Source: an uncultured Bdellovibrionales bacterium
Lineage (GTDB): Bacteria; Patescibacteriota; Minisyncoccia; Moranbacterales; DUUL01
Assembly: GCA_964346295.1 (NCBI GenBank)
Contig: CAYFUG010000004.1
Coordinates: 532 to 64,531 of the forward strand
Direction of reading: 5' to 3'
DNA: 64,000 bases
Under the pieces are notes generated by a model. The model saw only the letters and a list, made by a program, of their open reading frames with translations. It did no database searches and had not been told where the DNA came from. The position numbers were made by a program, and so were the translations under genes. Shown here one piece after another: positions 9,128 to 60,672 of the stretch. Positions within the stretch are counted from its first letter, which is position 1. Every line of letters begins with the position of its first letter.

Positions 9128-9156
9128 TTGACAAGGTTTCAAAAATATGCTACACT
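9128..9156 (+). promoter_or_regulatory. Module 1 promoter P2
   Basis: TTGACA, 17-nt spacer, TGcTACACT. Followed by GTCAAGCTAAGAAAAGG (9162-9178), almost identical to 28912-28928 and 59154-59170. Confidence 0.7.
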
Positions 9157-9958
9157 GTATCGTCAAGCTAAGAAAAGGATTCAGGCGAGCACCTTAAAAG
9201 CACTATCATAAATTATTCTTTGAGGAGAGAGTAATCTATAAAAAGAGTTTAACAATTGGACCTTGAGGGCTAAAAAGATTTTTAAATTAGCTCCCTAGAA
9301 AGGTTGTTATTCAAATTAGATTACAAAGCGGATTTATTTCTCTCTCAAAGTTTTTTCATCGTTTTCTCATCGGCAAGAACGATGGGAACCGACAAGAGGT
9401 GGGAATGAATCCGTTTTTTATTGCTTTTGTGGCAAGCCCGATGGAGGAGAGAGTTAAAATCCAAAAGTTTCCGCGGTTACGAAGTCATAACTATTGAATC
9501 GCGAGAAAGTATTGGCCGTAGTTTTTTCTACACCTTCATCGGGCTTCTCGCAAAGTCGAGGAGCGATTCTCAGCGAAGAATCACTGAACCCAATTTAGAG
9601 CGTTTTAACAGCGCTCCTACAAAGAACCTTACAATCAGGAATTTCTAGAATTTATCTAAAAATTCCTAAAACAAATGTTTAAGCTTTGCTTTTGAAAAAC
9701 CTCCCCGCCGCTATTAACGCTTTGGCGGGGTGCTAAGCAAATCTAATTCTCACTCAGCCTTCAAGGCTGGCTCGGATTGATTTGTTGGCAGAGGAGAGAG
9801 GCTCTAGCAGAAAACTAGAGTTCCCGAGAGGAGAGAGCAAGGTCGAATCATGAACATTTCTTTTGTTTTAGCCGGTCTTTTATAAAGACGGGCGGACATC
9901 TGCCGGTAAGAAGTTTCAACGCAAATTTCTTGCTGGTGATGTCTCTCAACGGAGAGAC

Positions 9959-9977
9959 TGTTCTTTGAAAATCTTAG
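9959..9977 (+). promoter_or_regulatory. boxA-like antitermination motif (module 1)
   Basis: TGTTCTTTGAAAATCTTAG. The core TGTTCTTTGAAAA matches the Gram-positive rrn boxA consensus and the copies at 29130, 32104 and 59261. Confidence 0.55.
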
Positions 9978-10110: not shown

Positions 10111-10228
10111 AACAACCTTATTTCTAAATCCCGAAAAGGAAGGCAAAAGTAAAGGCCCGGTCCGCTTTGGGCGGATGGTCGGGAGCTACACTGACTTTTG
10201 CTGGAATTGGAGGGAGAAGGAGAGGATC

Positions 10229-24118: not shown

Positions 24119-24122
24119 AACG

Positions 24123-24264
24123 GAGCCTTACTCATTTTGAAAATTTCGTTGTTGAAATCCGGGCTTCCCTTTCACCGTACACTTCAGTACGGCTCAAGCA
24201 AAGCCTACCTGCCTGTCGGCAGGCAGGGATTTCGCCTAGAACTCTCCTAAAATGAGAAAGTCTC
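24123..24264. repeat. MITE-like palindromic element, family B
   Basis: TIRs GAGCCTTACTCATTTT / AAAATGAGAAAGTCTC. Core TCACCGTACACTTCAGTACGG hairpin. Confidence 0.65.
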
Positions 24265-25342: not shown

Positions 25343-28009
25343 GTGGAGAGACTTGTTGTCGATAGAAGTGAAGAGAAGAGAAACGGACCGGAAAGAAATC
25401 CGGGGTTTTTTCAGTTAGCTGCTTATCCAAAAGAAGATTGGGATTTGTTAAGGGCTGTGAATAAGGTGTTGTCGAAAGATAGTAGTCGAGTTTATGGTTT
25501 GCAGAGGGCTTTATTGGATTATCCCGAACTAGGGAACGAAGAGACAAAGGAGGTAATTTTAGAAAAGATGGAAGAAGAACTTTTAAGCATTTATTCTGAT
25601 GATTTAAGACTGGAAAATGGAATAAACTCGATAAAAGATGCTTTTGAGGGAATAAGGGGGATTTATTTAGGGAAAATAGAGACAGAGAAGGTTGTGATCG
25701 AGCGAGTCAACCAGCTTTACCCAGCGGAGTTGGAAGCCTTTGAGGATTTATTGGGCGACTTTATAGTTTATAAAAAAGTTTTACCTAAAGATGTTATTCA
25801 GGCAATTTACAGAAATAGGCTAGAGAAAATTGGAAATGTAAATCTTAATAATCTTTTTAGTTATGGAGATGTAGGCTTAGAAAAAGAGTGTTTAGGGGTT
25901 AATGAAAGAATTTTTGAAGCTCTAGAGGAGCTAGCCTTGTTTTCTGATATTTCCGAAGGTCAGAAAGCGGAACTTTTTCAGTCAGTGGCAAGGGGGTTAT
26001 TTGGAAGGGAAAAAAAGTTTTTTGTAGACCCAGAAAAGGCTTTGAGATTTGTAAGAGTCACTTTTCAAAGTCCAGAGACCAAGCGCTATGCCAAGCCACT
26101 TTTCATGAATTATTGGTGGGAGTGGGAGAATGCTATTGAAAAAATGCAGTCAGAAATTGATTTTGAAGATCAGAGCAAGGAGAATATTAGGAAAATAGCA
26201 GAGTTGGCGGAAATTTACGGGGCAGTTTACGGAGAATTGATAAAGAGGGGAATCGAACCTAATAATGATGGGGCAGTTTACATGTTGAATTTTATTAACC
26301 AGGCGGGAGGAGTAGACGATTTTTACCTTAACTTAAAGGTTAAGCAAGCCGTTTTTCTTATTCAGGCTGATGCTTGCCTTTATTATGAGGAAGGCGAGGA
26401 TTGGCAAAAGGAAGGAAGGGCGCAGTTGATTTATAGTGCGGCTCAAACTTTGGGAACTGATCTGCAGCTTAGTGGCGAGGAGCTGCAGCAATTTTTAACT
26501 GATATAAAAGGTTTTTTTGGGCAAAAATTAACTGCCGAAATTGAACCTCTTGTTAAGGGGCAGGTGGCAGCTCCGGGAGTAGAAGGGCATTTTGATGATG
26601 ATTTTGATCTGGTGCTACTGGAGGAGGAGAGAGGCAATGAAGGTGATAGGCTGAAGTTTAGCGAATTTATTAAGTTGAATTACTACGATGTTATTGAAGA
26701 GGGCGATTTTCTGGATTTGATGTTTATGCAAAATTTATTCATCAAGAAGCGAATTTCCCAGGAGTTAGGCGTGGCTTTGCATAACTTAGAGTTGAGAGCT
26801 CAGAATCAGTTTTTAAACTTCATTAAAAATGCCTCCCAGGAGAGAGTGAGACAAGTGGCAGAATTCGTAAAAAATCCAGCAGAAGAAGAGCAGCGCTTAA
26901 ACCGCCTGAGAGTCTTTCTTTCCTTGGAAGAGGGCCATTTTTCAGGAGATCAGCTATTGGACTTGCCTTCCAGGATTGATGCTGACCAAGCGCAGCAAGT
27001 TTTTGACCAGTATGGGAGACTGGTTCAAGACGCTTTTTCGGAGCAGTCGACCCTTCAAGAAGTGCTAAAGAATCCGGAGGATTTGGCCAAAATTGATCAA
27101 GAAAAAATCACTCAAAATTTGCTCTTCCGAGGCCAAAAAATCCTTCAAAGGCTAATTGAGTCTAGCGAGCCAGAGAGAGAGGCAGAAAGTGTTTTATCCA
27201 GCCTTTTAGCACAAAAATGGCAAATTCAACTAGCGGGAGCAGTTTTTAGGGAAGGGATCGAGGCTGGGATGAGTTTAGATGATTTAGAGGGTGGCAGAAT
27301 TGAGGTTTTAACCGTCCAAGACTTAATTCAAAAACCAGAATTGGTGGCTAAAATGAGGGATATTTATTCTAATAATTTCTCCAAAAAACCTGATTTGCAA
27401 GGAGCGGTTTTGCAAGGATTTGATCAAAAAATGACAGAAGGAGGCGTTAATTCGGAGTTTGCTTTGGCCTTTGTGGGCGAAGAATTGGTGGCTTTTAGCC
27501 GCAGTGATCATGTAGACGAAAAAACTCGCTATTTTGCTTCTCTAAACTCTTCTTATGGCGGTGCCAAGTTTGGAGAAGCTCTGAGGAGGAAAAGAGAGGC
27601 TCAGGTGGGAGAAAATTTTGATATTCGGGCTCATAGTGAGCCAGAAAGTGCCATGAGTACGCTGTATATTGGCCCAGAGGGAGGATTTATAGCCGATGGG
27701 GTAGAATTTAATTATCACAACACCGAGGCTAATTTATTCAGTATTACTAGACAAAAAACCCCGCCCAGTTACTATGCTTGGAGTAAGCCTCGAGAAGAGC
27801 TAGTCAAAGAGGCGAAAGAACTTGCGGATAGTGAGATAAGTAGCATTTCTCTAGAAAAGGGTAAGCCTCTGGTTTTAAGCCTCCAGGGGCTAGAAAATAC
27901 ACTAGTGGCACTAAAAACCCTACTCAATGAGCAGGGCGGCCAGTTGACCAATTATTGGTTTCAGGGCGGAAGATATTTTTTAGCTATAGAAAACCCTAAA
28001 TCAAGCTAA
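25343..28009 (+). CDS. Large hypothetical protein (up to 888 aa)
   Basis: Long ORF with a GTG track start; the first ATG is at 25568. No motif recognised. Confidence 0.7.
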   Translation: MERLVVDRSEEKRNGPERNPGFFQLAAYPKEDWDLLRAVNKVLSKDSSRVYGLQRALLDYPELGNEETKEVILEKMEEELLSIYSDDLRLENGINSIKDAFEGIRGIYLGKIETEKVVIERVNQLYPAELEAFEDLLGDFIVYKKVLPKDVIQAIYRNRLEKIGNVNLNNLFSYGDVGLEKECLGVNERIFEALEELALFSDISEGQKAELFQSVARGLFGREKKFFVDPEKALRFVRVTFQSPETKRYAKPLFMNYWWEWENAIEKMQSEIDFEDQSKENIRKIAELAEIYGAVYGELIKRGIEPNNDGAVYMLNFINQAGGVDDFYLNLKVKQAVFLIQADACLYYEEGEDWQKEGRAQLIYSAAQTLGTDLQLSGEELQQFLTDIKGFFGQKLTAEIEPLVKGQVAAPGVEGHFDDDFDLVLLEEERGNEGDRLKFSEFIKLNYYDVIEEGDFLDLMFMQNLFIKKRISQELGVALHNLELRAQNQFLNFIKNASQERVRQVAEFVKNPAEEEQRLNRLRVFLSLEEGHFSGDQLLDLPSRIDADQAQQVFDQYGRLVQDAFSEQSTLQEVLKNPEDLAKIDQEKITQNLLFRGQKILQRLIESSEPEREAESVLSSLLAQKWQIQLAGAVFREGIEAGMSLDDLEGGRIEVLTVQDLIQKPELVAKMRDIYSNNFSKKPDLQGAVLQGFDQKMTEGGVNSEFALAFVGEELVAFSRSDHVDEKTRYFASLNSSYGGAKFGEALRRKREAQVGENFDIRAHSEPESAMSTLYIGPEGGFIADGVEFNYHNTEANLFSITRQKTPPSYYAWSKPREELVKEAKELADSEISSISLEKGKPLVLSLQGLENTLVALKTLLNEQGGQLTNYWFQGGRYFLAIENPKSS

Positions 28010-28762
28010 TTTTCGGGAATAATCCCAGTGAAATTCGAACAGGGATTTGTGCATTTGGTAAATATTGGGATCTTGGATTAGCATAGCGATTTTGTGTTCT
28101 TCTGAAAGGGAGATGTAAATGACTTTTCCTTCGTAAATTTGCATTACAGAACCCGAGAAGGGGTATTTTTCTTGATCAATAAGCTTAATTTCTGTAATAT
28201 CTCGCAGATAATTTTGCAAGTAATTTTTGGCAAAGGCAGAGTCCAGGACCAGAACCTTTTTGTTAAGGTTAAGCTTGGATCTTTTTTTCATGTAGCACTG
28301 ATTGATTTTTTCGGTGTATTTGATAACAGCCTCCAGGTCGGCATAAGTGTAAATAATTTCTTGACTGGTGAGAGTGTCTTCCAGGGCCTCTTGAATGCCT
28401 TCTAGTCCCTCAAAATAGCGGACGTCAGGTTTCTGAGAAACTAAATTAAATTCTGATGTCAGTGCATCTAGATTGGCCGCTAGGTTTTTATGAGTTTTTT
28501 CTAGTTGGGAAGATTGATCGCGGAGTAATTCTTCTAATTGATTAGGGTGTTGAGGATAAAAATGAGTCAATTTTCCCTTTTTTTTGCTAATTACCAGGCT
28601 TTTTTCTTCTAAAGATTCTAAAACATTGTAAACCACCCCCTTTTGGAGGGTGGTTTTTTTAATGATTTCGCTGGCAGGAACTGCTCCAGAGCGAAGCAGG
28701 AATTCGTAAATAGTGGCTTCATTAGGGGTCAGTCCAACTTGAGTAAGGATGTCTTGGTACAT
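28001..28762 (-). CDS. TrmB-family transcriptional regulator (paralog 1)
   Basis: N-terminal wHTH GLTPNEATIYEFLLRSGAVPASEIIKKTTLQKGVVYNVLESLEEKSLV. Divergent from the module 2 promoter. Confidence 0.8.
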   Translation of the reverse strand: MYQDILTQVGLTPNEATIYEFLLRSGAVPASEIIKKTTLQKGVVYNVLESLEEKSLVISKKKGKLTHFYPQHPNQLEELLRDQSSQLEKTHKNLAANLDALTSEFNLVSQKPDVRYFEGLEGIQEALEDTLTSQEIIYTYADLEAVIKYTEKINQCYMKKRSKLNLNKKVLVLDSAFAKNYLQNYLRDITEIKLIDQEKYPFSGSVMQIYEGKVIYISLSEEHKIAMLIQDPNIYQMHKSLFEFHWDYSRKLA

Positions 28763-28877
28763 GTTATTGAAGGTTAGTATTCTGTAAAAAGACTATTTTA
28801 AATGTATTTTTAAAAGATATTTCTACTTTAAATAAGGTAAAATAATAGATTAAGTTAAATTTTTAGTCATTAAATAC

Positions 28878-28906
28878 TTGACAATTTTTTAATAATATGC
28901 TACAAT
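28878..28906 (+). promoter_or_regulatory. Module 2 promoter (consensus sigma70, extended -10)
   Basis: TTGACA, 17-nt spacer, TGcTACAAT. A/T-rich upstream tract. Followed by GTCAAGCTAAGAAAAGG (28912-28928). Confidence 0.75.
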
Positions 28907-29129
28907 GCCTTGTCAAGCTAAGAAAAGGGTAAAACTCCGAAGCTTGAAGAACTGAAAGGTTCTAGCCAAATAAGAATAGTTGGCTCTTAGTACATTATAT
29001 CGAGAATAACCACACAACACAAACCACAGGAAAGTTTCTTGCAAGGCTTTTCTAGAGGTGTTTTTTGTGTTGTGGAAACATTCTCTAGCAAGAGCCCTGC
29101 AAAAAACTCTCCTATCACGGGGAGTTTTT

Positions 29130-29154
29130 TGTTCTTTGAAAACTCAGAAATCAG
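29130..29154 (+). promoter_or_regulatory. boxA-like antitermination motif (module 2, leader copy)
   Basis: TGTTCTTTGAAAACTCAGAAATCAG. Preceded by a terminator-like hairpin at 29101-29130. Confidence 0.6.
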
Positions 29155-29172
29155 TAAAGTGGTTTTCTCCTA

Positions 29173-29251
29173 GGGCTTTTGTCCTTGGTAGGCAGCTTAG
29201 TGCTTATGAAAGTTTGTAAGCGCTGAGCTGTTTATCAAGCAAGGAAAGCCC
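29173..29251 (+). promoter_or_regulatory. 79-nt imperfect hairpin after boxA (RNase III-like)
   Basis: GGGCTTT...CCTTG...CAGCTTAGTGCTTAT-GAAAG-...GTAAGCGCTGAGCTG...CAAGG...AAAGCCC. Confidence 0.6.
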
Positions 29252-29335
29252 GGGCGTCCTAGTCACCGGGAAATTTTACAAAAAAATTATCCGGGCTGTA
29301 CTAGGCAGCCCATTTTTCAGAAAAGGAGAAAGACC

Positions 29336-29785
29336 ATGAAGAAGAATTTCAAACTCGTTCCCGGATCCAAAGGTGCTCGCCGCTCCTTCGCCGTTACTTG
29401 TGGCCTGCAAGAGGGCTACGAAGACGGAACCCTTCACACTTTCCAGGAGGCCGTTGAGGTTGCCTTGGAATGGATGAGGGGGCGGGCCGCCGCCGGTGAG
29501 CAGTACTTGACTGGGACCTTCGTCCAGGGTGAGGTGGTGTTTGCCTGGCCCGAAGGCCCTGGCAAGGCCGGTGGCGGTCACGAGGCGACGGTGATTTACC
29601 AGGGCGAGGTCAGCCCGATCTACAACGCGGGCATGACCGATGAAGAGGCCGTCGAGATCCTCAATGACCTGGCGGCCCATCTGGGGACCGCTCTGGGCCA
29701 GACCCGGGTCTATGTCGCCTTGTGCGACCAGATCTGGATTCTCCAGGCGGAAGAGACGGAAACCCCCACCGGGGAGACCGTCTAG
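29336..29785 (+). CDS. GC-rich cargo protein 2a (149 aa), unknown function
   Basis: AAAGGAGAAAGACC-ATG. GC3-rich. Antisense shadow ORFs are present. Confidence 0.75.
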   Translation: MKKNFKLVPGSKGARRSFAVTCGLQEGYEDGTLHTFQEAVEVALEWMRGRAAAGEQYLTGTFVQGEVVFAWPEGPGKAGGGHEATVIYQGEVSPIYNAGMTDEEAVEILNDLAAHLGTALGQTRVYVALCDQIWILQAEETETPTGETV

Positions 29786-30072
29786 CGGCCGTTTTTCTGT
29801 CCCCCTTCAATTTGCTTTTGGCATTTAGGAGGGGGCAGCGCTGATTTCTGAGTAAGAGGGTTCAAGGAAGGCGGATTCACATTGTGCGTCCGCCTCCTTT
29901 TCTCAAATCTCAAGTTTAATTGAGGTTTGAGATGAAGGATTGCACCTTGAAAAATTTTCCCTATTTCTCCTTTCAATTGCCTTTTTTCACTTAGTGAAAA
30001 CAAATCCAACTTCGTTGATTGAAGTGAGGCAATTGACGATTTTCAACTGAAAAAAGGGAGAGGAGAAGGGGC

Positions 30073-30513
30073 ATGAAAATTCGAGTCAGGGATCCCAAAG
30101 AGGCGGCCGCCATTACCGGTGGCTGCACCTTTGAACCGGCTATCGGTTGGTGGACCTATACCGACCAGCCGGAAGAGCACGGAAGGCTGGGGCGGCTGTT
30201 TGAGGGGGAGCGGGATGCTTTATATATCCCCACACTCCAGAAAAATGGTCAGCCGGTGGCGGAAGAGGCCATTGCCCGCTTTAAGGTGCGAGCCAAGGAG
30301 TTGGGTTTTGGTGAAATCTCCGGAGCCTCCGGTATGTGGATTTTGTCCGACACGGGGGAGGCCCAGGTCGAGTACATCTGGATCTGTTGGGCTTCCCAAG
30401 TTTCGGATGAGACGCGGTCTCAGATGGCCGCGTTGGCAGAGGAAATCAAAGCCGCCACTAACCAGGACTGCGTGGCCTGGGAAAACGGCGGCCAGCTATT
30501 TTTCACGGGATAA
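30073..30513 (+). CDS. GC-rich cargo protein 2b (146 aa), unknown function
   Basis: GGGAGAGGAGAAGGGGC-ATG. Confidence 0.75.
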   Translation: MKIRVRDPKEAAAITGGCTFEPAIGWWTYTDQPEEHGRLGRLFEGERDALYIPTLQKNGQPVAEEAIARFKVRAKELGFGEISGASGMWILSDTGEAQVEYIWICWASQVSDETRSQMAALAEEIKAATNQDCVAWENGGQLFFTG

Positions 30514-30526
30514 GGAGGAGACACTT

Positions 30527-31306
30527 ATGAAACGGATTTTTGTTGTCCCTATCAACGATGGGGAGGCGGTAGAGATTAGGAATCTCCTACAGGATGGCGG
30601 TGAAGTGGTTGTGGAAAGCGTCCTCCGTTGGGGAGCCCGATGGGAGAAGCTGGAACCGGAGGTGGTGGCGGAGATCGAAAGGCTTCGCTCCCTTAATCCG
30701 GGAGTTCAGATCTACGGCGTGGAGCTGGCCGGCCCCAATCAGTGGGGGGCTCGCAACATCGACCACCACAAGTACCAGGATGAGGATCGGAGTAATTCCA
30801 AGTCCTCCCTGGAGCAAGTGGCGGAGTTGTTGGGCGTCCAGCTGACCCGGCACCAATTTTTGGTTTCGGAGAATGACAAGGGTTGGATCCCGGCGCTAAT
30901 AGCGGCCGGAGCCAGTCCCGACGAGATCGAACTGGTGCGGGCGCAGGATCGCCAGGCCCAGGGGGTTACCCCTGACGACGAAGCCCAGGCTCTTCGGGAT
31001 ATCGAGGCGGCCCAGTGGCAAGGTCGGAAGGTCTGGCTCCAGTGTCTCAAGGGGGCCACCTCGGCCCACACTGACCGGCTCTTTGGTCAGTTTGACGAAG
31101 CCCTGACGGTGGATGGGGTCAACGGAAAGTGGATCTATTTTGGTCCGCGATCCGAAGATTTCTTCGCCCTCACCGAAGGGGGCACCGAAGGGATACGCTG
31201 GAAAAGCCCTCGACCAGGGGGGTACTCCGGGGCGGAAAAGCCCCAGGAGGAGACCCAGGAAGCAATCCGGAATTTTTTTGGGAGTAATTCCCTTACCTCT
31301 TTTTAG
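30527..31306 (+). CDS. GC-rich cargo protein 2c (259 aa), contains NIDHH motif; unknown function
   Basis: Start taken at the ATG after TAAGGAGGAGACACTT, 14 nt after the 2b stop. The track ORF 30119-31306 has an implausible N-terminal extension that overlaps 2b. Confidence 0.75.
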   Translation: MKRIFVVPINDGEAVEIRNLLQDGGEVVVESVLRWGARWEKLEPEVVAEIERLRSLNPGVQIYGVELAGPNQWGARNIDHHKYQDEDRSNSKSSLEQVAELLGVQLTRHQFLVSENDKGWIPALIAAGASPDEIELVRAQDRQAQGVTPDDEAQALRDIEAAQWQGRKVWLQCLKGATSAHTDRLFGQFDEALTVDGVNGKWIYFGPRSEDFFALTEGGTEGIRWKSPRPGGYSGAEKPQEETQEAIRNFFGSNSLTSF

Positions 31307-31457
31307 CTAAGACGCACTAAGGAGAAGGACAAAATCAGCGTCGGGTTCAGATGGGCTGGCGAGAACCTCGTTAGCCCATCCTTTCCTAGTTCAGCACTAA
31401 AGTGGTGGTGGGCTAAGAAGGGATTAACGAAAAATCACCAAAAAAGGAGGCCCCAAA

Positions 31458-32003
31458 GTGTCTTTAACAAAAGAGCAATTCTCCAGATTAGCGAAGGTAG
31501 CGCTCCAGGTGGCAAAAGAGCGGGGCCAGAGCTTTTACGGGTGGGTTAATCCGCCTCAAATAGAGAGTGGAAAATTGACCCATGACTCCGGAAAAGGACC
31601 CCAGAAGATTTCTCCGGAAGAATCCCTGGCGATTTATAAGAGGAAGCTGGACGGGGTCTATGGGGAGAGATTCATTACCTCTTTGGGCACAATAGCTGCT
31701 TTGATAGCCAATGGCTATTCGGTGCGGCTGGTGCAGTTTTACAAGGAGGTAGGCCTGCCTTTTGACGCGGAGGGTTGGCTAGTGGTGATAATCGAAACCA
31801 TGCCAATTTTCCATGTTTCGCCGGGGGATCTGCGCCTGGAGCAGGTGGCGGATCTGGTTGAGGTGCTAGATGACAATCAAGCGCCCGATGTCTGCCACAA
31901 GGGCACCGACAAGCCGGGAGAGTTTGCGGCTCTTTTGCAGGGCTCTCTTTCTCCGGAGTTGGATTTGGTCAAGATTGCCCAGGAAAACAGTGGCAATTTT
32001 TGA
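31458..32003 (+). CDS. GC-rich cargo protein 2d (181 aa), unknown function
   Basis: AAAAAGGAGGCCCCAAA-GTG start. Confidence 0.7.
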   Translation: MSLTKEQFSRLAKVALQVAKERGQSFYGWVNPPQIESGKLTHDSGKGPQKISPEESLAIYKRKLDGVYGERFITSLGTIAALIANGYSVRLVQFYKEVGLPFDAEGWLVVIIETMPIFHVSPGDLRLEQVADLVEVLDDNQAPDVCHKGTDKPGEFAALLQGSLSPELDLVKIAQENSGNF

Positions 32004-32037: not shown

Positions 32038-32084
32038 GGATCAGGTGTCATTGTGCATCTGATCCGGAATTCTGAGCTTAGCTC
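32038..32084 (+). promoter_or_regulatory. Conserved trailer element: hairpin plus CCGGAATTCTGAGCTT
   Basis: GGATCAGGTG...CATCTGATCC hairpin, then CCGGAATTCTGAGCTTAGCTC. Homologous to 60573-60616. Partly complementary to the transcript 5' end at 28914-28924. Confidence 0.5.
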
Positions 32085-32703: not shown

Positions 32704-32836
32704 CAAAAGGCCCGAAAGAGTCTGGCCAACGCGCTAAATCTTTCGGAGGGACGAACTTGTTGAACACAACATTTTCGTCCCCTCTACTAGCAACTTAATT
32801 TGAGACTTGATCTTTTATTGAGTTGCTTGAGAGAAT
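32704..32836 (+). repeat. 133-bp direct repeat, copy 1 (structured element flanking cargo gene 2f)
   Basis: 131/133 identical to 34003-34135. Contains GGCCCGAAAGAGTCTGGCC and GAGGGACGAA...TTCGTCCCCTC hairpins. Confidence 0.9.
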
Positions 32837-32852: not shown

Positions 32853-32864
32853 GTTCTTTGAAAT
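32853..32864 (+). promoter_or_regulatory. Short boxA-core-like string
   Basis: GTTCTTTGAAAT. Only the core is conserved. Confidence 0.35.
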
Positions 32865-32924: not shown

Positions 32925-33971
32925 ATGGGTAAATTTCAGGAAATCACACTGGAATTATTGTTGGAAAATGAAGTTTTGAGGAAGTATCTTCTCAAGGCAA
33001 GAATTGGTCCAGCTAAAAAAGGCGACGGTGCTTTTGTGGGGACTTATGATATTGCCCCGAAGGAGTTTCGGAGTTTTGGAATTGTTTTGCCCAGGGGCGG
33101 GATGATTATTCCAGGGGCAGATCCTGTCAAGTTAAAGGAAATGGTCAAGGAGCCTGAGCGCCGGCGTGAGGCGGAGGACTTGGCAAATCGTCGTGCTGTT
33201 GAAAAAGATTATCTCAATCAGGTGAAAGAGATAATTGCTGAAGCTGGCCTCACGGATATTGAAGTGGTGGAAGAAGACGGAGTGGACTTCCATAGTATCG
33301 GCGCCACCAGCTGGCACAAGAGCTTTTTGGTAAGAGAAGGAGAGAAAATCTTCAGTCTTCACAGCGAAGAGGAGCCGTATCGTGGCTTAGATGACGATGG
33401 TTCGTACGAGCCGTGGAGGACGGAGTTTACTCCGTTGGAAGAGGTGAAATCCTTCCTTGAAGAGGAGGCGCGTCTTGTTGGTCCGAGAAAAATGTTTGCT
33501 GATCGGATCAGGCGGCTTATTGATATAAGCCACAATGTTGGTCAGCAAGGGCCAGATGAAACTGGCTGGGATCGCCCTCGAGTGGAATTATTTTTGTACG
33601 ATGACTATAAAAAAGGCAGGGACTGGGGTTTTTTCGGTCATCGTTGTCAGGGTATCTCTTCGGCCCACAGGATTTACTATCGAAAAAAACTCTATGAGAT
33701 TACCGAAGAAGGCATTTCTCGCCTTGAGTATGAAATCGGAGAAAGGGAGGAGGCGCTAGAAGCAAGACGAGCGATGCTCAAAAGACTCTTCGAAGAGAAG
33801 GGCAGAGTTTTTGAGGAACTCAAAGAAGAGAAAGATTGCTATGCCGGAAAGTCACTGGCAACCGGCAAGGCAAAGTACGATGAGTGGACTGAAACGCGCT
33901 ACTTTCTCGGCGACACAGAAGTTACCGAGGAAGAGCGTGATTGGCTGAAGGGCTTACCTAAGGATAATTAG
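32925..33971 (+). CDS. Cargo protein 2f (348 aa), Glu/Arg-rich, unknown function
   Basis: AAAAGGGGGATGCC-ATG. The track start at 32889 is a TTG. Confidence 0.75.
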   Translation: MGKFQEITLELLLENEVLRKYLLKARIGPAKKGDGAFVGTYDIAPKEFRSFGIVLPRGGMIIPGADPVKLKEMVKEPERRREAEDLANRRAVEKDYLNQVKEIIAEAGLTDIEVVEEDGVDFHSIGATSWHKSFLVREGEKIFSLHSEEEPYRGLDDDGSYEPWRTEFTPLEEVKSFLEEEARLVGPRKMFADRIRRLIDISHNVGQQGPDETGWDRPRVELFLYDDYKKGRDWGFFGHRCQGISSAHRIYYRKKLYEITEEGISRLEYEIGEREEALEARRAMLKRLFEEKGRVFEELKEEKDCYAGKSLATGKAKYDEWTETRYFLGDTEVTEEERDWLKGLPKDN

Positions 33972-38586: not shown

Positions 38587-39073
38587 AATGGTTTAAAAAA
38601 GGATTTAAGTTACTTGACAATCAATTGAGAAAAAGATAACTTCTAACTTAATTGCTTTTTATTGAGTCCGCTAAGGCAGCGTAACATTTTTTAGGGAATA
38701 AATCTACCCCCTGAGTAAGGAGGACTGGACTTTCTTGGAAAATGTTGTTAATATTGTAGACATAATTTGTCAGACTTCCTTAGGAGGGTAAATTAATTCC
38801 TGTTTAATTTCTTTAATATGCCTTAAATAAGGGTAAATTTAAAAAAGAAATTTTAATTAGGAAATTGATTAAGAGTTTTAATTTTATGTTAATGATCTTA
38901 ATTTAATTTCTCAAAATTTAATTTCTCATCTCAAAAGGGATTAGTTTATTTTTCTGGAAAATCTGAAATTTAATCTACGACTTGAACTCTGCTTGCTGGC
39001 TAGACTTGCAAAATTTAGAGAAGCAGTTTATAATAAAGTTAGAAATGCAGGAGGGTCAAGTTTTAAAAGAGTT

Positions 39074-39868
39074 ATGATGTTAGATGAAGAATTGATTAAA
39101 CTGGGCCTTTCCGAGAAAGAGGCAAAAGTTTACTTGGGGGCAATTCAATTAGGAGCCTCCACTGTCCAAAAAATTTCTCAGAAGTCTCAAGTTAACCGGG
39201 CGACTACTTATGTGATTATCGAGAGTTTAATGCGAATGGGCTTGATGTCTACTTTCGAGGAAGGTAGAAAAACTTTCTATGTTGCAGAGAAGCCTCGTCG
39301 TTTGGTAGAGTTCTATAAAAATAAGAAGACTCGCCTGGATGAGAAGATTGAAAGGTTAAGCGAGATCGTGCCGGAGTTGAATTCTCTTTATAACGATCAT
39401 TCCGACCGACCCAGAGTGAAGTATTATGAGGGCAGTGAGGGTTTATTAGCGATTTATGATGATTTCGAAAGTACTTTATCAGGGGGGCAAGAGATATTAA
39501 TATTTACTCCCATTGATGATTTCAAGAAAATCAAGAAGCCTCAGATGAGTCAAAGGATTGAGAAGTTTAGAGACAAGAGATTGAAAAAAGGAGTGAGAGC
39601 CAGGACTATATATAGCTCTGCGAGCGGAAGGGACGAAATATTTGAAGAAAGTATTAGAAAATTAGGTGAAGAGATCCTATTTTTAGAAAAAGATAAGAGT
39701 GGTCTCAATGGTTTAGACGCGGGTTTAAATGTTTATGGTAATAAGGTTTTCCTTTTTAGTTACCAAGGCAAGAGAGGCGGAGTTTTGATAGAGAGTCAAA
39801 GCGTGGCCAATCTTTTAGGAGGTATATTTGAAATAGTTTGGTCTCATTTGAAATCTTTAAAAAAGTGA
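39074..39868 (+). CDS. TrmB-family transcriptional regulator (paralog 2)
   Basis: LGLSEKEAKVYLGAIQLGASTVQKISQKSQVNRATTYVIIESLMRMGL. Start moved to the ATG preceded by TTGCAA-17-TATAAT. The track start at 38993 is a TTG. Confidence 0.75.
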   Translation: MMLDEELIKLGLSEKEAKVYLGAIQLGASTVQKISQKSQVNRATTYVIIESLMRMGLMSTFEEGRKTFYVAEKPRRLVEFYKNKKTRLDEKIERLSEIVPELNSLYNDHSDRPRVKYYEGSEGLLAIYDDFESTLSGGQEILIFTPIDDFKKIKKPQMSQRIEKFRDKRLKKGVRARTIYSSASGRDEIFEESIRKLGEEILFLEKDKSGLNGLDAGLNVYGNKVFLFSYQGKRGGVLIESQSVANLLGGIFEIVWSHLKSLKK

Positions 39869-47098: not shown

Positions 47099-47102
47099 GT
47101 AA

Positions 47103-58051: not shown

Positions 58052-58837
58052 TTAAGCTGGCAAAGTTTTCCAAAGTTGCTCAAATTGGGTGCGTTGGAGA
58101 GCGTAGATTTGAGGATCTTCGATAATGATGGAAATTAACCCGGAGGACCCGATTGCCTGGTAGGAGATTTTATTGTGATAAATTTGAATGGAAGCGCTGA
58201 AGTTAAGGGCGCTTTTTTTAATGAAACGCACTTGAGTGATGGCCTGGTAATTAGCGGGAGCAGTTCGATATTCTTCGATTATTCCGGGTTCATCAAGATC
58301 GATAATCCTTTTTTGGAGCCCCAAACGGGCTCTTTTTTGAGTGTAGCGAGCGTTGATCTTCTCATTGTTTTTGGCTAATTTCGGATCAGTGGTTCTAAAA
58401 ATAGCAGCAGAATCGATTAAAGTGAGAATTTCCGTGTCGCTGCGCAAAGTGTCCTCCAGCACTTTCTCTAGACCTTCGGAGCCCTCTAAAAAGCGAATTC
58501 CTGGTCGATTGAGGCCCAAATTGTATAAAGAAGCTAAGTTAGGCGCCATCTCTAAGAAGGCGCTTTTTTGTTGCTTAAATTCTTGCTCTTTTTGATCGAG
58601 GATTTTTTGGATTTGAGCCGGGTGTTGAGCGGAAAAACGGGCTACTTTGCCTTTTTTATCAAGCCTAAAGACTAGTTCCAGGTTCTCTAGCTCAGCCAGA
58701 ATTTTATAGGCGGCTTCTCTGGGGCGGTTGGTTTTTTGGGCAATTTCTCGGGCTCGGGTCGGTCCGTTTTGGTAGAGGAATTCCAAGATTTGGGCTTGGG
58801 AGGGGGTGAGGCCGATGCTTTGGAGAAGTTCCAGCAT
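58052..58837 (-). CDS. TrmB-family transcriptional regulator (paralog 3)
   Basis: GLTPSQAQILEFLYQNGPTRAREIAQKTNRPREAAYKILAELENLELV. Divergent from the module 3 promoter. Confidence 0.8.
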   Translation of the reverse strand: MLELLQSIGLTPSQAQILEFLYQNGPTRAREIAQKTNRPREAAYKILAELENLELVFRLDKKGKVARFSAQHPAQIQKILDQKEQEFKQQKSAFLEMAPNLASLYNLGLNRPGIRFLEGSEGLEKVLEDTLRSDTEILTLIDSAAIFRTTDPKLAKNNEKINARYTQKRARLGLQKRIIDLDEPGIIEEYRTAPANYQAITQVRFIKKSALNFSASIQIYHNKISYQAIGSSGLISIIIEDPQIYALQRTQFEQLWKTLPA

Positions 58838-59119: not shown

Positions 59120-59148
59120 TTGACAAATATTAATTATTATGCTACAAT
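59120..59148 (+). promoter_or_regulatory. Module 3 promoter (consensus sigma70, extended -10)
   Basis: TTGACA, 17-nt spacer, TGcTACAAT. A/T-rich upstream. Followed by GTCAAGCTCAGAAAAGG (59154-59170). Confidence 0.75.
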
Positions 59149-59260
59149 GCTCTGTCAAGCTCAGAAAAGGTTCAGATTCGTGGGTTTTGATTGTTGGAAT
59201 AATTTTGAGATCCGGAAAAAGGCTTAAAAAGCTTTTCTCGGGCTCTCAAAGCAGAGCCTA

Positions 59261-59285
59261 GGTTCTTTGAAAACTTAGAAATCAG
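59261..59285 (+). promoter_or_regulatory. boxA-like antitermination motif (module 3)
   Basis: GGTTCTTTGAAAACTTAGAAATCAG. Confidence 0.6.
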
Positions 59286-59420: not shown

Positions 59421-60554
59421 ATGAAAAAAATTTTTTTATACAGTCCGGGCGCGGATCTGCTCCTTTCCTGGGGCGCTCATTTGATCGAACGGCCTGATCT
59501 GTCAATCGAACGGGACATGCTCGCGGGCGCGATCAGCGAATGGAACCGGAACGAATTGCTGGCGGATTTCCTGGAATCCTGGCCGACCATGCTGGAAGAC
59601 GCCAACAAGGCGCAAGCGTTTTTTGAAGCTCGTCCCGTCATTCCCAATGATTTCACCGATCCTGACTGGAATGAGGCCATTGACGCCCTGCGGGCGTTCG
59701 ACCAGGTCGTTCATCTGTGGGTCGCGGTCGAAGACTTGTTCAGTGACAACGCGCCGGAAGTCATCGACGAACTGGAAGGCCGTTGTTACGACATTTCCGA
59801 ATGGCTTGACAACGCCGAATCGTTTACCAGCCTTCGTCTGGCCCCCTTGAACGAATGGCGGAAAAACCGGATTGAACGCGTCGAAGCGTCTTCCCGGTTC
59901 CTGTTTCCCTGGCTTGCCGATATGGCATGGGCCCCCGCCGACGCGCTGGAACAGCTTGAAGCCCATTGGAACGCGGTTCGGGAAAAAGGCGTTGGCGGCC
60001 TTTCATTTATCGCCGAGCCGGACCGCCTCATTTTCTGGGATTATTTAAAACGCGACATCGGGCTTCAGCAGGAAATGGAAAACCGCCGGCGGCTGGACAT
60101 CGCCATCGCCGACGCCGTGGATCAGAGCCTTCCGCTTCAACTGTTGCGGGTATACGAGAAGCATGTGCAAATATCCGACGTGCCGGAACACGTCCTTCGC
60201 CATGGACTGGCCAACGCGGCCTGCGCCGCCCTGACGGGCGACCGGCATGACGAAGCGTCCCATGAAGACCTGGGCCCCGCCCTGGAAGCGGCCATGGCGC
60301 AAAACGCTCCCATCGAGCGCGTGCTGACGACCGCCCTTTGCGGCCCCTTTCTTACCGACGCCCAGCGGCTTGCCGCGTTCAAGCGGGCCGCGATGAAGCT
60401 GGAAAAAGACGTCTCGGTGGGCGGTTTGGAGGGAATCTTCACCCAGGTGGACCTATGGATGAAAAACGAACTGACGGACGGCGATTTTGCCGACGCGATG
60501 ATGGCCGCCTGGGACCGGATGGCGGAAAACGCCATGAAAGGAGGTGATAACTGA
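59421..60554 (+). CDS. GC-rich cargo protein 3 (377 aa), unknown function
   Basis: CAAGGAGGATATC-ATG. GC3-rich. Several shadow ORFs on both strands. Confidence 0.8.
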   Translation: MKKIFLYSPGADLLLSWGAHLIERPDLSIERDMLAGAISEWNRNELLADFLESWPTMLEDANKAQAFFEARPVIPNDFTDPDWNEAIDALRAFDQVVHLWVAVEDLFSDNAPEVIDELEGRCYDISEWLDNAESFTSLRLAPLNEWRKNRIERVEASSRFLFPWLADMAWAPADALEQLEAHWNAVREKGVGGLSFIAEPDRLIFWDYLKRDIGLQQEMENRRRLDIAIADAVDQSLPLQLLRVYEKHVQISDVPEHVLRHGLANAACAALTGDRHDEASHEDLGPALEAAMAQNAPIERVLTTALCGPFLTDAQRLAAFKRAAMKLEKDVSVGGLEGIFTQVDLWMKNELTDGDFADAMMAAWDRMAENAMKGGDN

Positions 60555-60572: not shown

Positions 60573-60616
60573 GGATCAGGCTCGCAATGCGCGCTTGGTC
60601 CGGAATTCTGAGCTTG
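60573..60616 (+). promoter_or_regulatory. Conserved trailer element: hairpin plus CCGGAATTCTGAGCTTG
   Basis: GGATCAGGC...GCTTGGTCC hairpin. TTCTGAGCTTG (60606-60616) is the exact reverse complement of CAAGCTCAGAA at the transcript 5' end (59156-59166). Confidence 0.55.
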
Positions 60617-60672
60617 TCTGGAGCAATTTGATTGCTTTAGGCAAGTTGAGAATTCTTGAGTGATATTTTTTC

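What the first reader, a model, noticed from the sequence alone, without database searches (positions are those of the whole stretch)
28001..28929. TrmB-like regulators diverge from the modules, and promoters are bracketed by a TTGACA/TGTCAA inverted repeat
Two of the three TrmB-family paralogs (28001-28762 and 58052-58837, both minus strand) are divergently adjacent to module promoters. In each module promoter the -35 hexamer is mirrored 33 bp downstream at the transcription-start region:
- CTTGACAA 28877-28884 with TTGTCAAG 28910-28917 (8 bp perfect)
- TTGACA 59120 with TGTCAA 59153
- TTGAC 9128 with GTCAA 9162

A dimeric wHTH protein binding this dyad would occlude the promoter. Assigning that role to the TrmB-like proteins is inference. 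The right half-site also belongs to the conserved 5' stem sequence, so the symmetry may be incidental.
Basis: partly seen in the sequence, partly recalled or inferred. Interest (0 to 1): 0.6.

Follow-up and report, generated by a model that had tools for sequence, protein, structure and literature searches.

The report
Promoter mirror repeat is RNA stem
The mirrored TTGACA/TGTCAA hexamers are real, but they are a standard promoter -35 box plus the first bases of a transcribed RNA hairpin, not a repressor-binding dyad; the adjacent TrmB-like genes are nevertheless conserved partners of these expression modules across the tiny-celled Patescibacteria.

Summary
Two TrmB-family genes (28001-28762 and 58052-58837, minus strand) sit divergently next to near-consensus promoters. 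In each, TTGACA is mirrored 33 bp downstream: 8/8 bp in module 2, 6/6 in module 3, 5/5 in module 1.

The proposed operator role is not supported. Across 29 homologous promoters the -35 box never varies. The "right half-site" does vary (GTCAAG, GTTAAG, GTTACG, GTCATG, ATCAAG) and covaries with a downstream partner, not with the -35. It is the 5' arm of a 5'-terminal RNA hairpin, which is followed by a boxA-like element (GTTCTTTGAAAAC). That is the layout of an rRNA-type antitermination leader.

The TrmB-module linkage is strongly supported. A leader profile hits the divergent strand within 700 nt upstream of the TrmB gene in 25 of 82 Patescibacteria loci, with 16 more weaker or promoter-only matches, and almost nowhere else.

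The proteins resemble TrmBL2 over their full length. The better operator candidate is a different palindrome, TGTCA-N8-TGACA. It overlaps the TrmB gene's own -35 in 44/82 loci and, in degenerate form, the module -35 in 13/30.

In passing: module cargo repeatedly resembles type III CRISPR ancillary proteins. One piece is 92% identical in DNA to a type III-E csx30 gene.

The parts
28001..28762 (-). TrmBL2-like winged-helix gene T2 (253 aa): wHTH, long coiled-coil helix (residues 75-109), PLD-like C-terminal domain
   Evidence: Pfam TrmB E=1.2e-10. Profile hit to TrmBL2 5bpd/5box over residues 8-251, E=4e-5. AF2 model pLDDT 89.6. Foldseek: TrmBL2 5bqt E=4e-15, TrmB 3qph E=9e-9, C-terminal domain vs NucT 6ehi E=5e-6.
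25343..28009 (+). 888-aa protein of unknown function, convergent with and overlapping the 3' end of T2; a conserved neighbour of this TrmB family
   Evidence: No Pfam or NCBIfam hit. tblastn homologs lie convergently just downstream of the TrmB gene in 45 of 84 loci (contexts).
28865..28883 (.). Near-palindrome AGTCA-N9-TGACA formed by back-to-back -35 hexamers (T2-directed ATGACT and module TTGACA); best in-window candidate operator
   Evidence: 9/10 match to TGTCA-N-TGACA. Minus-strand promoter candidate ATGACT-17-TATTAT at 28870->28842. The same geometry is enriched at module promoters of other loci.
28878..28906 (+). Module 2 promoter: -35 TTGACA, 17-nt spacer, TG extended -10, -10 TACAAT; inferred start near 28912-28914
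   Evidence: 11/12 consensus, TG present. The start site is inferred from geometry, not measured.
28877..28917 (.). The reported inverted repeat CTTGACAA / TTGTCAAG (arms 28877-28884 and 28910-28917)
   Evidence: 8 nt, 100% complementary. Not maintained across homologs.
28913..28947 (+).
   Evidence: MFE fold. Covariation in 19 homologs: 86.8% paired, 6/8 pairs with changes on both sides, 0/500 shuffles. 20/29 leaders fold this way unaided against 7.8 expected.
28912..29335 (+). Module 2 leader RNA, 424 nt, very strongly structured, with several long near-perfect hairpins
   Evidence: MFE -163.6 kcal/mol, z = -9.35. No Rfam family.
29131..29141 (+). boxA-like element GTTCTTTGAAA(AC), directly after a hairpin with a U-run and ahead of the first cistron of module 2
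   Evidence: The consensus GYTCTTTAANA is from PMC5725501.
32105..32115 (+). boxA-like element GTTCTTTAAAA, an exact match to the gamma-proteobacterial consensus; internal to module 2. Further copies at 32853-32863, and a looser one at 29942
   Evidence: repeat family D15.
30527..31306 (+). Module 2 cargo: DHH-family protein related to the CorA-associated NrN of type III CRISPR systems; third gene of a conserved trio with 29336-29785 and 30073-30513
   Evidence: PADLOC DHH_CorA E=3e-31. The trio is conserved in order in L057 and L088.
58052..58837 (-). TrmBL2-like gene T3 (261 aa), lying between mreC (57131-58018) and module 3
   Evidence: Pfam TrmB E=6.6e-11. 36% identical to T2. MreC and MreD identified.
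59120..59158 (.). Module 3 promoter (TTGACA-17-TACAAT, TG extended -10, 59120-59148) and the mirrored TGTCAA at 59153-59158
59262..59272 (+). boxA-like element of module 3 (GTTCTTTGAAA)
59154..59166 (+). 5' end of the module 3 transcript, which pairs with 60606-60618 (12 of 13 Watson-Crick) to form a leader-trailer helix enclosing the cargo ORF
   Evidence: best complement in the module, reached by 1/200 shuffles.
60606..60618 (+). 3' partner of the module 3 leader-trailer helix (TTCTGAGCTTGTC). A related element, CCGGAATTCTGAGCTT, occurs at 32063-32079 in module 2
59434..60537 (+). Module 3 cargo: 1104-nt segment derived from a type III-E csx30 gene, embedded in ORF 59421-60554, whose start and stop codons are supplied by the module
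   Evidence: NCBIfam Csx30 E=4e-45. 92.0% ungapped nucleotide identity to L086. Donor loci carry Csx29, RpoE-like sigma, Csx31 and Cas7-11. Junctions are sharp.
9128..9199 (+). Module 1 promoter (TTGACA-17-TACACT, 9128-9156), 5' motif GTCAAGCTAAGAAAAGG (9162-9178) and first boxA-like element GCACCTTAAAA (9189-9199); no TrmB gene adjacent. A degenerate tandem copy of the promoter unit lies at 9046-9105
9960..9970 (+). boxA-like element ahead of the module 1 cargo 10229-11209; another lies at 11434-11444 ahead of 11686-12459
38993..39868 (+). Third TrmB-family paralog (likely start ATG 39074, 264 aa); no module leader adjacent
   Evidence: The nhmmer profile has no hit near it.

Best explanation
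The TTGACA...TGTCAA bracket is an incidental partial complementarity between two independently constrained elements.

- **Left arm.** It is the consensus sigma-70 -35 hexamer of a very strong promoter (TTGACA, 17-nt spacer, TG extended -10, TAYAMT).
- **Right arm.** It is the first 6-8 transcribed bases. These form the 5' arm of a 5'-terminal RNA hairpin (P1).
- **Leader.** P1 is followed by a boxA-like sequence. Together they resemble the hairpin-plus-boxA signal of rRNA-operon leaders, which loads NusB/NusE and makes RNA polymerase resistant to termination. Further boxA-like copies precede the downstream cistrons.
- **What the leader does.** It drives long, heavily structured transcripts that carry GC-rich genes.
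- **The TrmB-like proteins.** They are TrmBL2-type winged-helix proteins and conserved divergent neighbours of these units throughout Patescibacteria. They most likely act as local regulators through a different site: a TGTCA-N8-TGACA palindrome in which one half is a -35 hexamer. This would give autorepression at their own promoter. Where a degenerate copy overlaps the module -35, it would also give repression of the module.
- **In this window.** The corresponding site is the back-to-back -35 pair AGTCA-N9-TGACA at 28865-28883.

**Shown:** the sequence elements, their conservation and covariation, the synteny, and the protein fold.

**Inferred:** the transcription start, Nus binding to the boxA-like elements, and any DNA binding by the TrmB-like proteins.
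For: **Right arm is RNA.**
- In 19 homologous leaders, P1 is 86.8% paired, 6 of 8 pairs change on both sides (20 cells), and 0/500 shuffles reach this. Slid registers give 23-42%.
- Examples: GUCAA/UUGAC, GUCAU/AUGAC, GUUAC/GUAAC, AUCAAG/UUUGAU, GUUAACCU/AGGUUGGC.
- Without any fitting, 20/29 leaders fold with 5 or more of their first 7 nt as a 5' arm, against 7.8 expected.
- The module 2 leader folds with z = -9.35 and includes P1.

**Dyad not maintained.** The -35 is invariant, there is no covariation, and the G-C at the core is kept in 13/29.

**boxA.** GYTCTTTRAAA occurs 5 times in the window against 0.99 expected (0/100 shuffles). All copies are on the + strand inside modules. A slightly looser pattern gives 6/6 plus-strand hits inside modules. 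The consensus GYTCTTTAANA and boxA function outside rRNA are documented in PMC5725501 and PMC7665894. boxA-like elements follow P1 in most homologous leaders.

**Linkage.** 25 + 16 of 82 loci have the divergent leader or promoter, with 4 hits elsewhere.

**Alternative operator.**
- The TGTCA-N6-12-TGACA palindrome lies within 300 nt upstream of the TrmB start in 44/82 loci: 1.98 per kb against 0.017 per kb elsewhere.
- 43/50 copies have N8. 31/50 are followed by a -10 in the TrmB direction, but only 11/50 in the module direction; background is 11.5%.
- A 4-of-5-or-better TGTCA half-site lies exactly 8 bp upstream of the module -35 in 13/30 promoters, against 0-2/30 at other spacings.

**Protein.** Full-length TrmBL2 similarity. 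In TrmBL2 the dimerisation helix places the two wHTH domains on adjacent major grooves (PMC4877046).
Against: - No RNA or binding data exist. The start site is inferred from promoter geometry.
- The P1 alignment used for the covariation count was built by hand (arms chosen by eye, three bulged cases left out). RNAalifold on an automatic alignment found nothing because loop lengths differ.
- The boxA call rests on similarity to consensus sequences from distant phyla. No rRNA operon of these genomes was available to confirm that the same motif is used there.
- The strict N8 palindrome is absent from this window's own TrmB upstream regions. The in-window candidate has N9 spacing and doubles as two -35 boxes, so it could be explained by promoter layout alone.
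- The register-0 pairing of -35 and +1 consensus (75% when G-T is counted) is well above slid registers, so a residual DNA-level role of the symmetry is not excluded.
- About half of the TrmB loci show neither the leader profile nor the palindrome.
Confidence: 0.6

Rival explanations
1. One reading: a TrmB-like dimer (or higher oligomer) binds the TTGACA/TGTCAA dyad that brackets the promoter and occludes RNA polymerase.
For: - The repeat is perfect over 8 bp in module 2 and 6 bp in module 3.
- Each arm has the same pentamer (TGACA/TGTCA) as the half-sites of the palindrome conserved next to this gene family, so each arm is a plausible half-site.
- The -35 and +1 consensus sequences stay about 75% complementary in register 0, against 19-39% in slid registers.
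- TrmBL2 forms tetramers covering about 25 bp, and modelled octamers cover about 3.5 turns (PMC4877046), so an oligomer could span 33 bp.
Against: - There is no covariation, and the -35 is invariant while the right arm drifts to GTTAAG, GTTACG, GTCATG or ATCAAG. The strict match falls to 2-5 of 8 in many homologs.
- The right arm covaries with a downstream RNA partner instead.
- The arms are everted and 33 bp apart, whereas the conserved palindrome is inverted with 13 bp centre to centre.
- A TrmBL2-type dimer reaches adjacent major grooves only (PMC4877046).
- Module 1 carries the same arrangement with no adjacent TrmB gene.
Confidence: 0.07
2. The TrmB-like proteins are TrmBL2-style nucleoid proteins that coat AT-rich intergenic DNA with little sequence specificity, or they regulate something other than the module. 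The adjacency would then reflect shared chromosomal neighbourhood or co-mobility rather than operator-based control of the module promoter.
For: - The closest solved relatives over the full length are TrmBL2 chromatin proteins, which bind DNA non-specifically and form filaments (PMC4877046, PMC3031468).
- There are three paralogs in 64 kb.
- The T3-plus-module-3 block sits between mreC and mreD, which looks like an insertion.
- The family is also tightly linked to a convergent large protein in 45/84 loci.
- Modules exist without TrmB (window module 1; L093).
Against: - A sharply defined palindrome with fixed N8 spacing is enriched about 120-fold upstream of these genes. That is the signature of a sequence-specific factor.
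- The divergent leader is found at a fixed position relative to the gene in many phylum-level lineages, which argues against chance neighbourhood.
Confidence: 0.15
3. The mirrored hexamer is the -35 box of an antisense, TrmB-directed promoter that overlaps the module promoter face to face, so the two promoters compete for RNA polymerase.
For: - On the minus strand, TGTCAA reads TTGACA.
- In module 2 a weak -10-like TATTAA lies 17 nt further on (read).
- T2 lacks an obvious strong promoter of its own.
Against: - The consensus scan finds no minus-strand promoter using 28917-28912 or 59158-59153. It places T2- and T3-directed candidates elsewhere: 28870->28842, 59126->59099 and 59023->58996.
- In most homologs the hexamer is GTTAAG or GTTACG, which reads as a poor -35. 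The TrmB promoters there are identifiable near the gene, with the palindrome.
Confidence: 0.05

Closest known systems
TrmBL2 (Pyrococcus furiosus PF0496 / Thermococcus kodakarensis TK0471), PDB 5BOX, 5BPD, 5BQT
   Same: - About 260 aa with the same domain order: extended wHTH, long dimerisation helix, C-terminal domain, and no sugar-binding extension.
- It is the best sequence-profile and fold match over the full length.
   Different: - Only 17-19% identical.
- Bacterial (Patescibacteria) rather than archaeal.
- Encoded as several paralogs, each with a fixed divergent partner locus and a conserved palindrome. TrmBL2 is a single abundant chromatin protein with non-specific binding (PMC4877046, PMC3031468).
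- Oligomeric state and DNA specificity were not tested here.
TrmB / TrmBL1 sugar-sensing repressors of Thermococcales, which bind palindromic operators such as the TGM
   Same: - TrmB-family wHTH (PF01978) and a fold match to 3QPH.
- A likely local repressor acting on a palindrome that overlaps promoter elements.
   Different: - It lacks the C-terminal sugar-binding domain (253-264 aa against about 340).
- NCBIfam equivalog scores are far below the cut-offs.
- The candidate operator is TGTCA-N8-TGACA, not the TGM.
- The targets are not sugar transport or glycolysis genes.
rRNA-operon leader antitermination signal (boxB hairpin, boxA, boxC; NusB/NusE/NusA/NusG/SuhB) and boxA elements upstream of suhB and CRISPR arrays
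   Same: - A strong promoter, a 5' hairpin, then a GYTCTTTAANA-like boxA in a long structured transcript.
- Module 3 also has a leader-trailer helix like that of pre-rRNA (PMC5725501, PMC7665894, PMC10250234).
   Different: - It drives protein-coding cistrons rather than rRNA.
- boxA-like copies recur before successive cistrons.
- The 5' hairpin starts at +1.
- Nus binding is untested, and no rRNA leader from these genomes was available for comparison.
Divergently transcribed, autoregulated wHTH repressors (MarR-type and similar) whose palindromic operator overlaps a -35 box
   Same: Divergent gene arrangement, with a palindrome overlapping the regulator's own -35 in 31/50 cases.
   Different: - Different protein family and a larger protein with a PLD-like C-terminal domain.
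- The half-site spacing is 13 bp centre to centre.
- No ligand is known.

Membership tests
TrmB family (Pfam PF01978) | N-terminal TrmB-type winged helix-turn-helix scoring above the Pfam gathering threshold | tested here: met
   41.6, 42.3 and 50.2 bits against a cut-off of 25.6 for the three paralogs.
TrmBL2 subgroup | Full-length architecture of wHTH, dimerisation helix and C-terminal domain, without the sugar-binding domain, in about 260 aa | tested here: met
   Profile alignment of residues 8-251 to 12-262 of 5box/5bpd, E=4e-5. AF2 model pLDDT 89.6 with helix 75-109. Foldseek top 8 hits are all TrmBL2, E down to 4e-15.
TrmBL2 subgroup | NCBIfam equivalog score for TrmBL2 (NF041141) | tested here: not met
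   20 bits against a cut-off of 530. This is a distant relative, not an ortholog.
TrmBL2 subgroup | Tetramer; non-specific DNA coating and filament formation | not testable with these tools
   Needs biochemistry. The conserved palindrome argues for specificity instead.
TrmB/TrmBL1 sugar-sensing regulators | C-terminal sugar-binding domain and control of sugar transport or glycolytic genes | tested here: not met
   The protein is 253-261 aa and ends after the PLD-like domain. NCBIfam TrmB and TrmBL1 equivalogs score 16-23 bits against cut-offs of 600-650. The neighbours are unrelated to sugar metabolism.
   The -35 is invariant while the right arm is variable. Covariation score 0.087 against a shuffled mean of 0.099. 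Core G-C kept in 13/29.
   The arms are 33 bp centre to centre and everted. The family's conserved palindrome is inverted with 13 bp centre to centre. TrmBL2 dimers contact adjacent major grooves (PMC4877046). The step from geometry to binding is inference.
rrn-type boxA antitermination leader | Sequence matching the boxA consensus GYTCTTTAANA in the transcribed strand downstream of the promoter | tested here: met
   One exact match (32105) and four one-position variants (GTTCTTTGAAA). All lie on the + strand inside modules, 5 against 0.99 expected. boxA-like elements follow P1 in most homologous leaders.
rrn-type boxA antitermination leader | Hairpin (boxB-like) immediately upstream of boxA | tested here: met
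   P1 with covariation. In module 2 a 14-bp hairpin abuts the boxA at 29131.
rrn-type boxA antitermination leader | The same motif used in the organism's own rRNA leaders | not tested
   No rRNA gene in the window or in any fetched locus.
rrn-type boxA antitermination leader | NusB/NusE binding and termination resistance | not testable with these tools
   Requires binding and transcription assays.
Type III-E CRISPR Csx30 (cargo of module 3) | NCBIfam equivalog score above the cut-off | tested here: met
   154.5 bits against a cut-off of 125.
Type III-E CRISPR Csx30 (cargo of module 3) | Full-length protein encoded next to cas7-11, csx29, csx31 and rpoE | tested here: not met
   Only profile positions 2-347 of 560 are present, in a 377-aa ORF. 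No cas gene is in the window. The full-length relatives do sit in complete III-E loci.

The most novel reading that the evidence does not exclude
The TrmBL2-like gene plus its divergent, rRNA-style antiterminated leader is a Patescibacteria-wide expression platform for counter-defence genes. These are homologs of type III CRISPR "off-switch" or ancillary proteins, in at least one case captured from another organism, and they are expressed to blunt a host's or competitor's type III CRISPR signalling.

**Cargo seen:**
- Csx3/Crn3 ring nuclease with its AAA partner.
- NrN-like DHH phosphodiesterase.
- A Csx30 N-terminal fragment that is 92% identical in DNA to a bona fide III-E locus. It is fused to a module-supplied ribosome-binding site, start codon and stop codon.

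**Basis:**
- 4 of 20 GC-rich cargo ORFs from other loci hit Csx3-AAA models, E from 1e-52 to 3e-62.
- The window adds the NrN-like protein and the csx30 fragment.
- GC-rich cargo is general across loci.

**Against:**
- The commonest cargo family (326 aa) is a phylum-wide protein of unknown function.
- The proteins could equally regulate the organism's own signalling.
- No delivery route into a host is known.
Probability: 0.2. Interest if true: 0.85.

Novelty: new variant of a known kind. Interest (0 to 1): 0.55.

Why it matters
**For the finding as stated.** It shows that a tempting palindrome at a promoter is a by-product of a -35 box and an RNA stem. It also redirects any binding experiment to a different, comparatively supported site.

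**More broadly.** It defines a conserved locus type in Patescibacteria, a phylum with almost no experimentally characterised regulation. The locus has:
- a TrmBL2-like regulator;
- a near-consensus promoter;
- a hairpin-plus-boxA leader on protein-coding operons;
- GC-rich cargo that repeatedly resembles type III CRISPR ancillary enzymes.

None of this is in Rfam, and the paper library holds nothing that links TrmB to this phylum.

**If the boxA reading holds,** it extends Nus-type processive antitermination to multi-cistron protein operons in an ultra-small bacterium.

**If the cargo reading holds,** it points to anti-CRISPR-like functions encoded by cellular symbionts rather than viruses.

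Tried and rejected
- **Exact-pattern scans.** Scans for the promoter-leader junction (TGCTANNNTNNNNNGTCAAGCTNAGAAAAGG) in genome, metagenome and viral collections found nothing. The motif is too variable, so relatives were reached through the protein instead.
- **Rfam.** At gathering and E-value thresholds, on the window and on 13 loci, only RNase P and tRNAs came up. The weak leader hits (Phe_leader, lactis-plasmid, miRNAs) are chance.
- **Automatic alignment plus RNAalifold.** This gave no structure because the P1 loop length varies. It was replaced by a hand-registered arm alignment and an unfitted folding test.
- **PWM of the strict N8 palindrome.** It finds no good site upstream of the window's own TrmB genes. 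Only a 9/10 N9 site lies at the module 2 -35.
- **Second apparent intergenic palindrome (AGCTAAAATTAGCT type).** It was not robustly enriched: 3 loci.
- **Long-range 5'-3' pairing.** Significant only for module 3 (1/200 shuffles). For modules 1 and 2 it is indistinguishable from chance.
- **Mobile-element explanations.** Integron, transposon and retroelement explanations for the modules were considered. No integrase, transposase or reverse transcriptase is in the window.
- **"All cargo is recently captured foreign DNA."** Rejected. The 326-aa cargo is a phylum-wide family, and the NrN trio is conserved at 51-68% identity among relatives.
- **Antisense promoter using the mirrored hexamer.** Not supported by the consensus scan.

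Full report
**Setting.** The window is a bacterial chromosome segment of about 42% GC with a uniformly positive GC skew. It carries gyrA, mreC, mreD, secDF, ispG, mnmA and an RNase P RNA. The closest relatives of its TrmB-like proteins all come from Patescibacteria (CPR) genomes: Paceibacterota, Falkowbacteria, Magasanikbacteria, Doudnabacteria, Kaiserbacteria and others. The window's own taxon was not determined.

**Check of the observation.**
- ORFs 28001-28762(-) and 58052-58837(-) match Pfam TrmB above threshold. They are 36% identical over their full length.
- The third paralog is 38993-39868(+).
- The inverted repeat is exactly as described: CTTGACAA 28877-28884 / TTGTCAAG 28910-28917, 8 nt and 100% complementary.
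- TTGACA-N25-40-TGTCAA occurs twice in the window against 0.02 expected. Module 1 has the 5-bp version.
- The three units, plus a degenerate fourth at 9046, are homologous 60-nt promoter-leader copies. They count as one architecture inherited several times.
- The promoters are close to ideal: TTGACA, 17 nt, TG extended -10, TACAAT, 11/12 consensus matches. Promoter geometry puts the start at about 28912-28914, the first bases of the "right half-site". This is inference; there are no RNA data.

**Is the regulator-module link real?**
- A search with T2 gave 37 homologs. Three genomic contexts all showed the same order: a large unknown protein convergent with the TrmB gene, then the TrmB gene, then a divergent strong promoter, a long non-coding leader and small ORFs without Pfam domains.
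- A profile-guided scan of one genome per species returned 80 further loci.
- An nhmmer profile of the 54-nt promoter-plus-leader start hits the strand divergent from TrmB, within 700 nt of its start, in 25 of 82 distinct loci through the +1 motif. Another 16 loci give weaker or promoter-only hits. Only four hits lie elsewhere in about 840 kb.
- Homologs of the 888-aa protein 25343-28009 lie convergently downstream of TrmB in 45 of 84 loci.
- Starting from the cargo side, with the 326-aa protein of module 1, two of three long contigs carry a divergent TrmB gene and one does not. This matches module 1 of the window.
- The link is therefore frequent and conserved across phylum-level lineages, but not obligatory.

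**Is the dyad the operator?**
- On 29 ungapped homologous promoters the -35 is invariant (TTGACA in 28, TAGACA in one). The +1 motif drifts through GTCAAG, GTTAAG, GTTGAG, GTTACG, GTCATG, GTTATG and ATCAAG.
- Treated as a pairing, the dyad shows no covariation. The score is 0.087 against a shuffled mean of 0.099, and 453 of 500 shuffles are as high. The central G-C is kept in only 13/29.
- The strict complementarity ranges from 2 to 8 of 8, and window module 2 is the extreme case.
- The same bases covary with a partner 8-35 nt downstream. Examples are GUCAA/UUGAC, GUCAU/AUGAC, GUUAC/GUAAC, AUCAAG/UUUGAU, GUUAACCU/AGGUUGGC and UUACGCUG/CAGCGUAA.
- In a hand-registered alignment of 19 leaders, 86.8% of cells pair and 6 of 8 pairs change on both sides (20 cells). 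No shuffle out of 500 reaches this, and slid registers give 23-42%.
- That alignment was fitted by eye, so I added an unfitted test. Folding the first 55 nt of each leader alone, 20 of 29 use at least 5 of their first 7 nt as the 5' arm of a hairpin, against 7.8 expected from shuffles.
- The module 2 leader as a whole folds with z = -9.35 and contains this hairpin.
- The right half-site is therefore the 5' arm of a 5'-terminal RNA hairpin (P1). The left half-site is fixed by sigma-70.
- What remains is consensus-level complementarity (cTTGACA against TGTYAAg), 75% with G-T counted against 19-39% for slid registers. I cannot show this to be meaningless, but nothing selects for it.

**What follows P1.**
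- Two to six nucleotides after P1, most leaders carry GTTCATTGAAAAC, GAACATTAAAA, GCACCTTAAAA, GCACTTTACAA or similar.
- In the window, GYTCTTTRAAA occurs five times against 0.99 expected (0/100 shuffles). Every copy is on the + strand inside a module and ahead of a cistron: 9960, 29131, 32105, 32853 and 59262. A slightly looser pattern adds 11434.
- The published gamma-proteobacterial boxA consensus is GYTCTTTAANA (PMC5725501). The copy at 32105 matches it exactly.
- boxA is known to act outside rRNA, at suhB and upstream of CRISPR arrays, and its consensus drifts between phyla (PMC5725501, PMC7665894).
- Module 3 also has a 12-of-13 Watson-Crick helix between its first 13 nt and 60606-60618, enclosing the cargo ORF (1/200 shuffles). 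This resembles the pre-rRNA leader-trailer helix (PMC10250234).
- I read the unit as an rRNA-style antitermination leader placed on protein-coding operons.
- Untested parts: Nus binding, and whether the rRNA leaders of these genomes use the same motif. No rRNA gene was in any sequence I could fetch.

**The protein.**
- A profile of 17 family members aligns over residues 8-251 with TrmBL2 structures (E=4e-5).
- The AlphaFold model (pLDDT 89.6) has a wHTH, a 35-residue helix and an alpha/beta C-terminal domain.
- Foldseek ranks eight TrmBL2 chains first (E down to 4e-15), then TrmB (9e-9). The C-terminal domain matches the PLD-fold nuclease NucT (5e-6).
- The protein lacks the sugar-binding extension of TrmB and TrmBL1, and it scores far below every NCBIfam equivalog cut-off.
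- It is a distant, bacterial, TrmBL2-like member of the TrmB family.

**A better operator candidate.**
- Upstream of the TrmB genes there is a sharply defined palindrome, TGTCA-N8-TGACA. It lies within 300 nt of the start in 44 of 82 loci, at 1.98 per kb against 0.017 per kb elsewhere. The spacing is N8 in 43 of 50 copies.
- Its TrmB-proximal half is followed by a -10 at 16-18 nt in 31/50 cases (background 11.5%), so it doubles as the gene's own -35. The distal half has a -10 in the module direction in only 11/50. Back-to-back promoters therefore do not explain it.
- At the module promoters, a 4-of-5-or-better TGTCA half-site lies exactly 8 bp upstream of the -35 TGACA in 13/30, against 0-2/30 at every other spacing from 4 to 13.
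- The window's own loci are poor examples. There is no strict site. The only good match is AGTCA-N9-TGACA at 28865-28883 (9/10), and it coincides with back-to-back -35 boxes of the module promoter and a T2-directed candidate promoter.

**Cargo, noticed along the way.**
- Module ORFs are 10-20 GC points richer than their genomes, here and in most related loci.
- ORF 30527-31306 is a DHH protein of the CorA-associated NrN type (PADLOC 3e-31). NrN degrades the type III CRISPR messenger SAM-AMP (PMC10600005). With its two upstream genes it forms a trio conserved in L057 and L088.
- ORF 59421-60554 passes the NCBIfam Csx30 cut-off. Window 59434-60537 is 92.0% identical in DNA, without gaps, to the 5' two-thirds of a csx30 gene in a complete type III-E locus with Csx29, an RpoE-like sigma factor, Csx31 and Cas7-11.
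- The homology ends sharply on both sides. The module supplies its own Shine-Dalgarno sequence, ATG and stop codon.
- In other TrmB-divergent modules, 4 of 20 GC-rich cargo ORFs are AAA-Csx3 or Csx3-associated AAA proteins, E from 1e-52 to 3e-62. Csx3 is the ring nuclease Crn3 (PMC7371418).
- Against a simple "captured foreign DNA" reading, the 326-aa cargo of module 1 belongs to a phylum-wide family with more than 100 members.

**Verdict.**
- The regulator-module association is confirmed and generalised.
- The specific dyad-operator mechanism is not supported. It is replaced by three readings: the right arm is an RNA stem, the unit is a boxA-type leader, and a different palindrome is the candidate operator.
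- None of these elements is in Rfam. The paper library holds no paper that links TrmB to this phylum.

Noticed in passing
window 59421-60554 (homology 59434-60537): The module 3 ORF is a 377-aa fragment of a type III-E CRISPR csx30 gene. It is 92% identical in DNA, over 1104 ungapped nt, to a complete III-E locus of 55% GC. The junctions are sharp, and the ribosome-binding site, start codon and stop codon are supplied by the module. It looks like a very recent capture of a gene fragment into an expression slot.
   Followed up: partly
L069:3734-4978(-), L056:530-1138(-), L079:123-710(-), L005:2821-3384(-); window 30527-31306: GC-rich cargo of TrmB-divergent modules in several Patescibacteria lineages matches type III CRISPR ancillary families: AAA-Csx3, the Csx3-associated AAA domain, and an NrN-like DHH protein. 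No cas genes are nearby.
   Followed up: partly
window 10001-12000, 29336-32000, 59421-60554; loci: Genes downstream of the leaders are 10-20 GC points richer than their genomes in most loci. This holds even for cargo families that are conserved phylum-wide, so recent transfer alone does not explain it.
   Followed up: partly
window 32704-32836 and 34003-34135: Two 133-nt direct repeats, 98% identical, flank ORF 32925-33971 at the distal end of module 2. This suggests a recent cassette-like insertion or duplication.
   Followed up: no
window 57131-62046: T3, module 3 and a pair of small overlapping minus-strand ORFs (60814-61050 and 61047-61298) lie between mreC and mreD, which are normally adjacent. 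This suggests the whole block was inserted.
   Followed up: no
window 24122-24206, 44200-44284, 49634-49718, 58927-58962 (also 6079, 34304, 42263): Two families of 70-130-nt intergenic repeats (REP/MITE-like, with a CACCGTAC...GTACGGCTC core) sit at gene ends. One copy lies in the 5' region of T3, between its start codon and its likely promoter.
   Followed up: no
window 7573-7638 and 47018-47128: 33-nt tandem repeats (2 and 3 copies) sit immediately upstream of, or overlap, the starts of two AAA_14/DUF4143 ATPase genes (7623-8957 and 47103-48377).
   Followed up: no
L006, L073, L004, L007, L024, L008, L039 leaders: A subset of leaders shares a further conserved block (GGCGRGTTAGAGTGRYGG ... 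CCAAYCCAAARGG ... TTACCGGCGAGTGAC) and repeated GGAGAGAG/CTCTCTCC stems. This is possibly a distinct structured RNA domain that is not in Rfam.
   Followed up: no
L004 about 2430-2680 (opposite strand of the leader): A GIY-YIG (URI-type) endonuclease ORF is inserted in the long leader of one related module, flanked by short repeats.
   Followed up: no
TrmB upstream regions of L005-L084: In many loci the -35 of the TrmB promoter lies only 28-45 nt from the start codon. This implies leaderless or very short-leader mRNAs for these regulators.
   Followed up: no
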